Shown: positions 36,386 through 40,710 of the stretch, piece after piece | How the letters are laid out: every line of letters begins with the position of its first letter | Numbering within the stretch: position 1 is the stretch's first letter | From: Minutocellus sp. GHC0000111 | Lineage: Eukaryota | Assembly: GCA_977018835.1 (NCBI GenBank) | Contig: OZ361260.1 | Location: forward strand, 3,596,001 to 3,660,000 | DNA length: 64,000 nucleotides | Direction: 5' to 3' | Position numbers and translations under genes: made by a program | The notes under the pieces: model-generated | Database searches by the model: none | The model's input: only the letters and a program-made list of their open reading frames with translations | What the model was told of the DNA's origin: nothing

Positions 36386-37165
36386 CTACTGGAATGTGAG
36401 CTTCCAAAAGAAGGCAAGGAGGACACATTGGGCTACTCCTCGTCCAGCATGTCCCCAGGGATACGGTATGGCGGGCGCATTCTTCATCTGAGCATCGTGC
36501 GTGAACATATACATGTTTGCTGGAGTCACCGCCGCCACTAGCAGACAGAGGAGGAATGCCGGTATTTGGACAGGAATATCAAAGAGACCAACTCCGCTTC
36601 CAGCCAGTAACAAGCCACCCCCAATCTCGGCAACGCCGGTCCAGTATGAGTGGTATTCTTCATATGTTAGCCCAAGTTCTTCGGCTCCAGGCGCTGGCAC
36701 GTCCCAAAGCCCACCCCAGATACCTCGAGGTGGTACAATGCTCGTGAAGGATTCCTTTAGAGCAAAATGGCTGACGCCAGCGGCAACAAAGATGAGACCG
36801 AGCGGTAGAGGCCACGTATAATCCCTCCACAAATCAAACCACTCATATGGAAGCAAGTCCTCTACAAAACCGAGGAAGCCAACAATGACCGACGTCCCCA
36901 AGAGAATGCCTGCAGATATGGCCCCGACGGCCAACTTTTGCTGGGACGGCTCCATGGCCGAAACCAAGATGGATGGGTCCGGTCGAAGAATGTCGATGCC
37001 GGCCTGCTCTTCCGATTCCGCATGCAATCTCACAACATTTGGGCGTCGAAGACCCAATGCAAGAGAAGGAGCATTTGGTGCAATGCAAGTCGGTGGTGAG
37101 AACGCACTGGTGGAAGCCACCGCCGATGCGACCAGCAGGAGTGCAAACTTCGTTTTCATCGCCAT
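36386..37165 (-). CDS. Plastid-targeted DoxX-like membrane protein
   Basis: Signal peptide plus [20 protein letters not shown]...IVPP...TGVAEIGGG...VTPANMYM pattern. Confidence 0.75.
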
Positions 37166-37334
37166 ATCTCTCGTGCCACCGGCAACCAAAGCAGCACGCG
37201 TCGTTACAGTCGCAAATGGCGCTATGGGGCCTTGCTCATTGCTTGCTCATTGCCTCATTTTTGTTCGTCCGTCGTCCGCAAGCTCGTACGTACGGTTAAT
37301 TGTAACGATAACTGAGTCATTTTTTTCTTTGACC

Positions 37335-38123
37335 ATGGCGAGAGGCAACTTCGTGCTGCTGCTTGCCACGGCGGCGGCGGTACTCGTGTCGCCAGCAAGT
37401 GCCTTCTTCGGCGGCGCCACGACGAATCCATCTGCCTCGGCATCTGCTCAAATTGGAACGACCCCACTCGAACGCTTGGCGGATGTGCAGCTTACCTCGG
37501 TCTCCTCTGGCCAACCAACCCTGCTGACGTCGCAGTGGCGAAACAAAGAGCTGCTGCCCTGGCAGAACGAACGATGTGTCATTGAATTTCTTCGACACTA
37601 TGGATGAGTGTTCTGCTGGGAGAGGGCCGTCGAGTTGAAGCGCGATGCTCTCCCAGCATTGGAGGATAATGGAGTCAAGCTGCTTCTCGTCGGGATTGGC
37701 TCTCTTGAATCTGGTCAGACCTTCGGCGAACGAACAGGATTCCCTCAGGACATGCTGCTTGTTGATGAAAGTGAAGAGACGGAGGCATACAAATCCATCG
37801 GCACTCGCAACTCACAAAGAGATCCTTCCACGAACAAGCAAATATTCGAGGGTGTCGAGTCGATGTGGAGCTCTGCAACAACAGACGCCATTGAGATCCG
37901 TGGACGAGACGACTTAAATGCCATCACGGGTAATCTCTTCAAGCCAGGAATTTACAAGCCAATGATGCCAAGTACAGTGGAAGCTACTCTTGTTCAGGGA
38001 GCAAGCTTTGTTTTCAAGGGAAAGGATGCTCTTTTGGAACATTACGATGAATCGTCTGGGGCGCACGTTTCTGTAGAAGAGCTCTTGGAGGCTGCTCTGT
38101 CGAAAAAAGCAGGAAACTTGTAG
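37335..38123 (+). CDS. Plastid-targeted peroxiredoxin-like selenoprotein (AhpC/TSA-2, PRXL2/SelU-like), with Sec at TGA 37605-37607
   Basis: ORFs 36885..37607 and 37608..38123 are contiguous in frame: EFLRHYG-U-VFC-WERA (UxxC). C-terminal QGASFVF..KDALLEHYD; signal peptide plus ASAFFG; SECIS downstream. Confidence 0.9.
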
Positions 38124-38150: not shown

Positions 38151-38247
38151 CAAGGATCTCCATGCGATTTGCGATGAATGACGGTTTGGTGGAATGTTTG
38201 ATAATATCTCGCCAAACTTGAATATTTCGTGAGCACTGGACCCTTTG
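38151..38247 (+). promoter_or_regulatory. SECIS element (form II) in the 3'UTR of the selenoprotein
   Basis: ATGAC (38178) / TGAA (38219) core, helix II GGTTTGGTG:CGCCAAACT, apical AA with TGTT:AATA mini-stem, lower helix TTTGCGA:TCGTGAG extended by CAAGG..TCCA.TGC:GCA.TGGA..CTTTG. Confidence 0.85.
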
Positions 38248-38366: not shown

Positions 38367-40345
38367 CTATGCTACAACAATTTCTTCGCCTTCCAAATCA
38401 TCCTTCAACCCAACCAAATCGTCAGCATTGAGCAGTACACTCATCTCACGGAGTAGTTGCTCTTCATCCTTTTCCGGCACCAAGGCAGCCTTGGACATGT
38501 CGACTCGGTCCATCCTCCACAGCCCCAGGCATGCCGCAGGCTCCTCCACTTCAGACAAATACGGCTTCTCCACAATCATCGCACAGTCTATACGCACATT
38601 CTTTACTTGGCCGAGGACAATATTGCAAATCTTTCGAACGCCAGGATTACCGATCAAGTCGCAGTCTACCTCCAGAAGCGCGCTTTTTTTCTTGCCAGTG
38701 TTAGAATCTATCGATTCATCGTATTCGTGCCATGTAGCCCCGACTCTACCGCCAGCAATCGTTACTTCCTTCTGTGGCAGTCCCATTGCTTTGATTATAT
38801 ATGGGCCGTCTACAAGGCACGGCAATATTTTCCACCTCCTGTTTCGATATTGAACGGTCCCTCTAAGAAAGCGTTTGAAGGCCTTGGTGTCTTCTGTATC
38901 GTCCTCCTCTTCTACAATATCTTCAAATTTCTTGATCCAGCTAGGCATCTGAAAATAGACGACCAAGTTGGCTCCAGGGAGCATAAGATTGACGATGAAT
39001 GTAGGCACATCTCGAAGGCCATTCTGCTCCAAAATTGGTTGCCGACAAATTCGCTCCTGGAGTATGTCAGCTCGGAATACGTCCATACCTCGCAGCTTAA
39101 TGGCTCCACCTCGATATTTGCCTGCAGGATTGAGGCCCGGTCATTCCCCGTATTGACGTGACCCAATCTCTCGGTTTTCATTCGAGCAGCATAAACATCT
39201 TCGGTGACATCTTGTTCTCCAGGAATCGATGATTGTGCATCCGAATCGCTTTCTTGATATGAATAATCGGATGAACTGCACGGCTTGGTTCGAAAGTCGT
39301 CGTACTTGAGCAATCGTTGCATCAATGCCCCCGTGGGCTTATCATACACGTGCTCCTCCCAATACGCTTTGGTCCTTCGAGTGGCATCCCCCAGAGTTGT
39401 CCAAATATCACCAGGAATATCCGCCAGGCTTGACATTGGGGTCAGCGTTGGTCGAGACCGCGCTGGCTCAACACTACCTGGGGTTACCAGATACGAAGAA
39501 ACTCCCCGGAATAGCTGGAATACATAGTCACGCTTGCGCTCAATGTATGTAGGTGGTCTGCTTATCGCGGCGCCTTGTCGTTCTTCGTTGAACGAGACGC
39601 GGCTAATCGACTTGTTCAGAGGACACTTTTGTGGAGAGAGAGACCTGTTTGGTCCTTTCACTCCCTCTTCGCCAGCAACAGCCGTACCAAGAGATGCAAC
39701 TTCATCACGAATCACCGCTTTGTGCATCACCGGCCAAAGCAAATGCCCAGCTAGAACCCCAAGTATGGTCCATAAGACAGCCAAATGCAAAGGGACGACG
39801 CCGTCTGACCGAATCATGTCGGAACTTCGGATCGATGAGATAGTCCCGACAACGAAAATGATTGACAACCGACAAAGCTCTGGCGTAAATCGAAGGAATT
39901 TGAATTTATCGCCATCGTCAGGGGCCGTCGATTCCTCTTCATTGCTAATCACACCAACCATGATACTAGACTGTCTCTTTGGTACTTCGTCGTCACTTTT
40001 GGTAGTGCTCTTAATCGATGCTCCGACGAGCGGTGTTGTCTCGTCGTCCCCATTAGTAGCATTTGAAGATGAGCCGGGCAATGCGACAGCATAATGCCCC
40101 GCCCTAGGCGTATTGTTTGTCAAAACCTTCGGAGGGATAATGCTTCGTACATTGGGCGCAGCTTCATTGACGCTGCCCGCCTCTGTTGTGGTGAGGTGGA
40201 GGGCCTTTTTGCACTTGGCTGTTCCGTCGACATGTGCATTTTTGATCGTCGTTTTGGTTGCTCGGTATGCCTCCTCTGCGGCGTCGGCGACATCCTCAAG
40301 AGCCCCCTTGCCCTTTTGGTCTTTACTGGTACCCCTGGACGTCAT
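38367..40345 (-). CDS. EDR2 C-terminal (DUF1336)-like protein with two TM helices; frameshift ~39098
   Basis: LRGMDVF...PTFIVNLMLP...RNRRWKILPCLVDGPYIIK...LEVDCD pattern; the two overlapping ORFs need a one-base correction. Confidence 0.7.
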
Positions 40346-40710
40346 GCTGCCTATCTCTAGCTACTAGACCTAGCTGCGTGTTTACGCTGGTCTGGTGGCC
40401 GTGCATGGCAATATGGCAATGTGGCAATTGGCGGCCGGCATGCATTGCGAGTGGGCATGCTTTTATAAGGGGGCAAACAGGGCAGAAAATGGTCTGCTCC
40501 CTCAAATTCAAATCGAGCGCGCCATGCATTGGCATGGCGCGGCTTGCGTGCAAATGGCGGGGGCAGCAAAAGTCGAAAAGGCACCAGCCCGTTCCTTCAA
40601 GTTATTCCTTCCAAGTTTTGCATTATCGCGCCATATTACGCTTCGCCGGTCTGGGCTGAAAGTATATTTTGTGCTTGTAGATTCTAGCATTCTGAGTTGA
40701 CCTCCCAAAA

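What the first reader, a model, noticed from the sequence alone, without database searches (positions are those of the whole stretch)
37335..37470. The selenoprotein carries a complex-plastid targeting sequence
Seen: MARGNFVLLLATAAAVLVSPASA-FFGG followed by an S/T/A-rich stretch. Known: signal peptide plus ASA-F is the diatom bipartite plastid-import motif. Inference: a Sec-dependent thiol oxidoreductase acting in the plastid. Most characterised eukaryotic selenoproteins are not plastid-localised, so this could link selenium demand to photosynthetic redox control.
Basis: partly seen in the sequence, partly recalled or inferred. Interest (0 to 1): 0.7.

Follow-up and report, generated by a model that had tools for sequence, protein, structure and literature searches.

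The report
Plastid-bound selenium enzyme of marine algae
This algal gene encodes a likely selenium-containing redox enzyme of a known family, and its front end carries a signal that likely sends it into the chloroplast, which is what its plant relatives would lead one to expect, so it is real but only mildly surprising.

Summary
Observation confirmed. Window 37335-38123 (+) is an intron-free 262-codon gene of the SelU/PRXL2/AAED1 thioredoxin-fold family. It has an in-frame TGA in a UxxC site (TGA in 50 of 50 readable related loci) and a SECIS-like 3' hairpin. The leader is a signal-peptide-like stretch with best cut ASA|F; the published ASAFind matrix gives cleavage 7.76 and transit 4.46 (cut-off 2). 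SignalP was not run. Two corrections. First, the 'S/T/A-rich stretch' is a weak transit peptide: no Lys/Arg in 23 residues, and half of it is a conserved motif that likely belongs to the mature protein. Neutral transit peptides stalled in the periplastid compartment in published tests, so stroma is likely but not settled. Second, a plastid location is expected: the nearest cysteine relatives are the plant 'AAED1, chloroplastic' proteins and algal kin. Relatives in Pelagomonas, Octactis and Phaeocystis clusters share the gene, mostly with Leu rather than Phe after the cut. SelU selenoproteins are in print for diatoms; ten searches found no paper placing one in a plastid. This scan noted the same kind of gene twice before in other genomes. 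Verdict: new member of a known kind, interest 0.35.

The parts
37335..38123 (+). Coding sequence, 262 residues with TGA read as Sec, no intron; SelU/PRXL2/AAED1 family
   Evidence: (PF13911, E 6.5e-13); RNA contigs bridge the TGA without gaps
37335..37403 (+). Signal-peptide-like leader, residues 1-23, ending in ASA
   Evidence: hydrophobic core 2.63, best cut after A23; SignalP not available
37404..37427 (+). Phe at +1 and the variable, uncharged transit-peptide-like linker, residues 24-31
   Evidence: pLDDT below 50 for residues 17-31
37428..37451 (+). Conserved P-[ST]-A-S-A-x-A-R motif, residues 32-39, likely start of the mature protein; the window has Gln where relatives have Arg
   Evidence: A34 19 of 19, A38 17 of 19, R39 18 of 19; helix 33-39 in the model; RNA contig of X5 has A>G at 37450, giving an Arg codon
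37464..38099 (+). Thioredoxin-like folded domain, about residues 44-255
   Evidence: best fold match human prostamide/PGF synthase, E 6.4e-09; then PrxQ/BCP
37605..37616 (+). UxxC active site (TGA at 37605-37607)
   Evidence: aligns with the CxxC of 9us9
38160..38240 (+). SECIS-like hairpin in the 3' UTR; AUGA at 38178, UGAA at 38219
   Evidence: same core and stem with changed letters in L001; no Rfam match
36386..37165 (-). Divergent neighbour, membrane protein of no Pfam family, with a textbook plastid leader; 169 bases separate the two start codons
   Evidence: cleavage 8.63, transit 5.29; same arrangement in L001

Best explanation
The gene encodes a thioredoxin-fold enzyme of the SelU/AAED1 family whose in-frame TGA likely encodes selenocysteine and whose leader is predicted to carry it into the plastid, most likely the stroma, where it would act as a thiol/peroxide reductase. 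Steps: (1) shown: in-frame TGA in a UxxC site, 3' hairpin, transcription across the TGA; (2) inferred: the hairpin acts as SECIS, so Sec is put in on cytosolic, ER-bound ribosomes; (3) predicted: the signal peptide is cut after Ala23 at the outermost plastid membrane; (4) inferred from published diatom work: the exposed Phe24 commits the protein to onward import, with the short neutral linker helped by basic residues of the mature N-terminus; (5) inferred from fold and family: the selenolate attacks a peroxide or disulfide, Cys94 resolves it, and a stromal thioredoxin re-reduces it. It would be the selenium version of the chloroplast AAED1 protein that plants and green algae keep with cysteine.
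For: ASAFind matrix scores 7.76 and 4.46, with Phe at +1; the cleavage score sits at the 45th percentile of draws from the matrix's own frequencies. No acidic residue in the first 15 positions, as described for plastid rather than PPC proteins (PMC12136025). Phe-Phe-Gly-Gly after the cut is kept in 5 close relatives. A cut-site choice blind to the +1 residue gives F/L/W/Y in 27 of 45 distinct family members against 10.4 +/- 2.7 in 5,000 shuffles (max 21). Named members of the Sec subfamily are all algae with red-type complex plastids: Pelagomonas, Octactis, Phaeocystis. Of 20 more distant clusters that I chose to look up, 11 had an organism name and 10 of these are photosynthetic, two named 'AAED1, chloroplastic'; many have long basic, Ser/Thr-rich leaders. 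No ER-retention tetrapeptide among the tallied C-termini. In Phaeodactylum a 4-residue transit peptide sufficed when the mature protein supplied a Lys (PMC3017844 Table 1).
Against: No Lys/Arg before R47, where the matrix expects 1.8 in 20 positions (chance of none 0.14). The transit score rests on the Phe: 1.21 without it, 1.5th percentile. Phe at +2 occurs in 0 of 166 training proteins. Phe-led but neutral transit peptides went to the PPC in PMC3017844. In the window's clade 9 of 19 have net charge 0 or less over 20 residues, and 12 of 19 have Leu at +1, which scores below the high-confidence cut-off (sites set by hand). Leu is at +1 in only 3 of 166 training proteins. The blind cut-site method mis-called this very protein, so it is crude. 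SignalP was not run. The tree does not resolve the Sec clade's sister (SH-aLRT 80). No substrate or activity evidence.
Confidence: 0.65

Rival explanations
1. The protein is imported but stops in the periplastid compartment (or is shared between PPC and stroma): Phe/Leu at +1 takes it across the second membrane, and the neutral linker does not carry it across the inner two.
For: Neutral linker here and in 9 of 19 clade members; neutral Phe-led constructs localised to the PPC (PMC3017844); close relatives pair an Asp with the Arg, and the window's allele has lost both charges; almost no free linker in pelagophyte- and haptophyte-type members.
Against: Natural PPC proteins are described with scattered acidic residues, which this leader lacks; uncharged spacers of one or two units after FAPA still reached the stroma; another leader in the window with a textbook FxAP start (27995, +) also has no Lys/Arg in 20 residues; plant relatives are listed as stromal (PMC13533914 table, orthology recalled).
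Confidence: 0.2
2. The protein is an ER-lumen or secreted oxidoreductase, and A|F or A|L is a chance feature of its mature N-terminus.
For: Many eukaryotic selenoproteins use the secretory route (recalled; TargetP found SP but no chloroplast peptides among Ostreococcus selenoproteins, PMC8834552); ASAFind's low-confidence class has specificity 0.82 only, and most family members would fall in it.
Against: This protein would fall in the high-confidence class (specificity 0.99) if SignalP cuts at 23/24; F/L enrichment across the family; no ER-retention signal; chloroplast-annotated relatives.
Confidence: 0.12
3. The TGA is a true stop or the gene is split, so that leader and catalytic half are not one protein.
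For: Public gene callers split it this way: most of the 100 hits are pieces that start after the TGA. SECIS-like hairpins were found in only 8 of 43 relatives' 3' regions by my strict pattern. One sample's contig shows a 2-base deletion at 37934.
Against: TGA in 50 of 50 readable loci, never TAA or TAG, at the column where relatives have the catalytic Cys; conservation on both sides; confident single-domain model across it; 0 of 43 reverse-complement controls pass the SECIS pattern.
Confidence: 0.03

Closest known systems
Selenoprotein U (SelU/SELENOU) of algae, Pfam PF13911 AhpC-TSA_2
   Same: Same Pfam family and UxxC site. Two SelU genes are listed for Thalassiosira pseudonana (PMC2375036, passages), and Sec-form SELENOU occurs in over half of 36 algal genomes (PMC7539508, passages).
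   Different: The main text of PMC7539508 has no occurrence of chloroplast, plastid or signal peptide. I could not compare sequences with the published SelU sets, so identity with one of the two Thalassiosira genes is untested.
Thioredoxin-like protein AAED1, chloroplastic (plants; kin in green algae and Cyanophora)
   Same: Nearest full-length cysteine relatives, 30-38% identity, same RH[FL]G-C-x-x-C-WE site in the plant group, N-terminal plastid-type leaders. Arabidopsis At2g37240 was detected in isolated plastid proteomes (PMC10400147, passage); that this locus is AAED1 is recalled.
   Different: Cys instead of Sec; long basic transit peptide instead of signal peptide plus a very short neutral one; the algal Sec proteins form their own clade (SH-aLRT 97) with a clade-specific insert region. 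Function of the plant protein is itself unclear (PMC8195503, passage).
Human prostamide/prostaglandin F synthase (PRXL2B/FAM213B), PDB 9us9, 9usa
   Same: Best sequence (E 3.4e-05) and fold (E 6.4e-09) match; same active-site loop.
   Different: About 21% identity, CxxC, no plastid leader in the aligned part; substrate cannot be carried over.
Diatom bipartite plastid-targeting sequence (ASAFAP motif)
   Same: Signal-peptide-like core, A-S-A before the cut, Phe at +1, hydroxylated residues, no early acidic residue.
   Different: No AP after the Phe, Phe at +2, no basic residue, and only about 8 freely varying residues before a conserved motif.
Chlamydomonas Sec-type GPx1/GPx2
   Same: Described as chloroplast-targeted selenoproteins on prediction (PMC3095285, passages): a precedent for plastid selenoproteins.
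   Different: Different enzyme family and a primary plastid.

Membership tests
Eukaryotic selenoprotein | In-frame TGA aligned with Cys in homologues, with conserved flanks | tested here: met
   TGA in 50 of 50 readable loci; Cys in 34 of 35 longer distant hits that show the motif
Eukaryotic selenoprotein | SECIS element in the 3' UTR | tested here: met
   AUGA..AA..UGA core on a stable stem, z -3.4, kept in L001, joined to the coding part in a relative's RNA contig. Rfam gave no match.
Eukaryotic selenoprotein | Sec shown in the protein | not testable with these tools
   needs mass spectrometry or 75Se
SelU/PRXL2/AAED1 (PF13911) | Pfam match above the curated cut-off | tested here: met
   49.5 bits against 27
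SelU/PRXL2/AAED1 (PF13911) | Thioredoxin fold with (U/C)xxC | tested here: met
   model pLDDT 83, top match PRXL2B
SelL-related redox protein (NF040769) | Score above the curated cut-off | tested here: not met
   39 bits against 120
ASAFind high-confidence plastid protein | SignalP-positive, with the cut at the same site | not testable with these tools
   SignalP not available; hydropathy and A-x-A pattern fit
ASAFind high-confidence plastid protein | F, W, Y or L at +1 and transit score above 2 | tested here: met
   Phe, 4.46
Stromal transit peptide of diatoms | Net positive charge | tested here: not met
   net 0 over 20 and 25 residues in the window's allele; +1 in the X5 allele
Stromal transit peptide of diatoms | Few acidic residues, many hydroxylated residues | tested here: met
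   0 D/E and 7 S/T in 20 residues
Periplastid-compartment protein | ASAFind 2.0 PPC matrix score | not tested
   matrix not fetched; qualitative features from PMC12136025 passages fit poorly

The most novel reading that the evidence does not exclude
A Sec-only subfamily of the plastid AAED1 enzymes is fixed across diatom-type, pelagophyte, dictyochophyte and haptophyte algae, uses a minimal, near-neutral import signal, and works in the periplastid compartment or on both sides of the plastid envelope as a dedicated selenium-dependent redox relay. Gene callers split it at the TGA, so its leader is hidden from plastid proteome predictions, and it is part of why these algae need selenium.
Probability: 0.2. 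Interest if true: 0.62.

Novelty: new member of a known kind. Interest (0 to 1): 0.35.

Why it matters
If the location is confirmed, it gives a concrete, testable selenium-dependent enzyme in the complex plastid of major marine phytoplankton groups, with a natural cysteine counterpart in plant chloroplasts for comparison. The TGA was never replaced by Cys in 50 readable loci. It also shows a blind spot: gene models cut at the TGA separate the leader from the catalytic half, so such proteins drop out of predicted plastid proteomes. The family, its Sec form in diatoms and the plastid annotation of its plant relatives are already known, so the gain is a localisation and an annotation fix, not a new system.

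Tried and rejected
No whole genome is held, so Sec machinery, paralogues and the organism's identity were not checked; 'diatom' is inferred from the leaders and from the clade's place next to Octactis (support 92/86), with no named member in the clade. Rfam found no SECIS; the four weak matches are chance. Searches of the ASAFind supplementary proteome tables for short family motifs found no orthologue; the files are cut in storage and two large ones cannot be read, so this is no evidence of absence. Supplements of PMC5462543 could not be read; they may list the family among ancestral plastid proteins. An upstream in-frame ATG at 37224 was considered and set aside: no RNA contig covers it, it lies between the two divergent genes, and relatives do not keep that frame. 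RNA contigs cannot give a start site: none covers the ATG itself. An ESM Atlas comparison was not obtained, so remote look-alikes by language-model features are untested. A search for an apicoplast selenoprotein precedent gave nothing usable. PMC7230881 and PMC7238072 (passages) say nothing on SelU location. No complex prediction was run.

Full report
What is in the sequence. The ATG lies at 37335 and the frame runs to a TAG at 38121-38123 with one in-frame TGA at 37605-37607. There is no other in-frame Met before residue 140, so any product that holds the active site must carry the leader. No whole genome is held; that the organism is a diatom is inferred, not shown.

The protein. Pfam PF13911 (AhpC-TSA_2) matches above its cut-off, E 6.5e-13. 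The best solved relative by sequence and by fold of an AlphaFold model (mean pLDDT 83) is human prostamide/PGF synthase (PRXL2B), followed by PrxQ/BCP peroxiredoxins. The TGA falls on the first Cys of its CxxC. A metagenome scan gave 53 loci; 50 show the motif and all 50 have TGA there. A hairpin 55 bases after the stop has the AUGA, AA and UGA elements of a eukaryotic SECIS (pattern recalled) and folds better than all 200 shuffles; L001 keeps core and stem with different letters. My strict pattern found such hairpins in 8 of 43 distinct 3' regions and in 0 of 43 reverse complements, so most relatives' elements were missed or differ. Rfam gave no match. RNA contigs from 3 of 8 runs laid bridge the TGA without gaps (X1, X5, X6), and a relative's contig joins coding part and hairpin (X14). 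One sample shows a 2-base deletion at 37934, unexplained.

Is the leader real? I applied the published ASAFind matrix (PMC4329603: parts 1-2 of 6 of the text and supplementary file 8 read; one published row reproduced by hand). The best cut is A23|F24, cleavage 7.76, transit 4.46. The paper's rule (F/W/Y/L at +1, transit score above 2, agreement with SignalP) would make this 'plastid, high confidence', specificity 0.99 on its reference set; SignalP itself could not be run. Only 5 of 682 Met starts in the window pass the same bar, 4 genes in all, against 4 of 13,640 shuffles. RNA contigs begin at 37339 in two studies and at 37340 in a third: a weak hint that transcripts include the leader; none covers the ATG.

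The 23 residues after the cut hold no Lys or Arg. Without the Phe, the transit score is 1.21, the 1.5th percentile of 3,000 draws from the matrix; the three other strong leaders in the window score about 1.8-2.1 on the same measure. Residues 32-39 are conserved over the 19 aligned members of the window's clade (A34 19 of 19, R39 18 of 19) and are modelled as a helix. They likely belong to the mature protein, which leaves a freely varying linker of about 8 residues. The window alone has Gln39; an RNA contig of another population has the Arg codon. In Phaeodactylum, Phe-led but neutral transit peptides went to the periplastid compartment, while a 4-residue one reached the stroma when the mature protein supplied a Lys, and short neutral spacers were also tolerated (PMC3017844, parts 1-2 of 5 read). 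So entry into the plastid import path is well supported, and the final compartment is not settled.

The family. Of the 50 loci, 49 had a usable Met (L033 dropped); with the window and after removing duplicates, 45 leaders remain, 44 with a hydrophobic core (for L028 the script took an inner Met, and its true leader is longer: a hydrophobic anchor plus a basic, Ser-rich linker). A cut-site choice blind to the +1 residue gave F/L/W/Y in 27 of 45 (25 Leu, 2 Phe) against 10.4 +/- 2.7 in 5,000 shuffles. The method is crude (it mis-called the window's own site) and the sequences are related. With hand-set sites in the window's clade, 7 of 19 have Phe and 12 Leu. The tree separates the window's clade, an Octactis group, a Pelagomonas group and a Phaeocystis-containing assemblage. 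Gene sharing between haptophytes and these ochrophytes is reported to be enriched in plastid-targeted proteins (PMC5462543, passages); my trees are unrooted and do not show a direction of transfer.

Nearest cysteine relatives. A search of 1.84 billion representatives with P0007 gave 170 hits, 150 listed. Of these, 35 are at least 170 residues long and show the active-site motif: 34 have Cys. I looked up 20 by choice; 11 carry an organism name: Physcomitrium and Arachis ('thioredoxin-like protein AAED1, chloroplastic'), Wollemia, Mangifera, Acetabularia, Bryopsis, two Pedinophyceae, Cyanophora, Phaeomonas, and one weak hit in Ancoracysta (a heterotroph, recalled). The Sec proteins form one clade (SH-aLRT 97); its sister is unresolved. 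Arabidopsis At2g37240, which I recall as AAED1, was found in isolated plastids (PMC10400147, passage), is tabulated as stromal (PMC13533914, passage) and is called of unclear location and function in PMC8195503 (passage). A plastid role is therefore the family's expected setting.

How it likely works. Sec is put in during cytosolic translation, so no plastid Sec machinery is needed (established knowledge). The signal peptide is cut after Ala23, Phe24 directs onward import, and the mature thioredoxin-fold enzyme would use Sec91/Cys94 to reduce a peroxide or disulfide and be recycled by thioredoxin. Confidence: selenoprotein about 0.97; plastid-directed (stroma or PPC) about 0.85; stroma about 0.65. 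The substrate is not known; lipid peroxides are a guess from the PRXL2B likeness.

What is known. SelU selenoproteins are listed for Thalassiosira and many algae (PMC2375036, PMC7539508, passages). Chlamydomonas Sec-GPx were described as chloroplast-targeted (PMC3095285, passages), whereas no Ostreococcus selenoprotein had a predicted chloroplast peptide (PMC8834552, passages). Ten full-text searches of the held library showed no paper that places a SelU-type selenoprotein in a complex plastid; subscription papers and unread supplements may. Two earlier notes of this scan describe the same kind of gene in other genomes; a search by sequence found no look-alike window.

Verdict. This is a new member of a known kind, with a likely but untested plastid location and an unusually short, neutral import signal. 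Interest 0.35.

Noticed in passing
window 36386-37165 (-): Divergent neighbour with a textbook plastid leader and several hydrophobic stretches; no Pfam or NCBIfam family; RNA contigs cover it; same head-to-head arrangement in L001. The two plastid-type genes may share a promoter of under 170 bases.
   Followed up: partly
window 37449-37451: Gln codon where 18 of 19 clade members have Arg; an RNA contig of run X5 has the Arg codon. A natural allele pair that changes the leader's charge from 0 to +1.
   Followed up: partly
window 37934: Contigs of one sample (runs X2, X3) lack 2 bases here, which would shift the frame; allele or assembly error not decided.
   Followed up: no
L028 1-520: A family member nested among haptophyte-type sequences has a long leader: hydrophobic anchor plus a basic, Ser-rich linker, the layout of plastid leaders in other complex-plastid lineages (recalled).
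   Followed up: partly
protein P0317: A distant paralogue with Trp at the first active-site position (likely a TGA read as Trp by the gene caller) and a classic signal plus basic transit peptide: possibly a second plastid-type Sec member of the family.
   Followed up: no
window 27995 (+) and 29772 (-): Two more genes with strong plastid-type leaders; the first has a Rieske-like CPH motif (recalled) and no Lys/Arg in its first 20 transit residues.
   Followed up: partly
window 38367-40360 (-): Downstream convergent gene, split over two frames in the window (intron or frameshift near 39140) but one 660-residue frame in L001.
   Followed up: no
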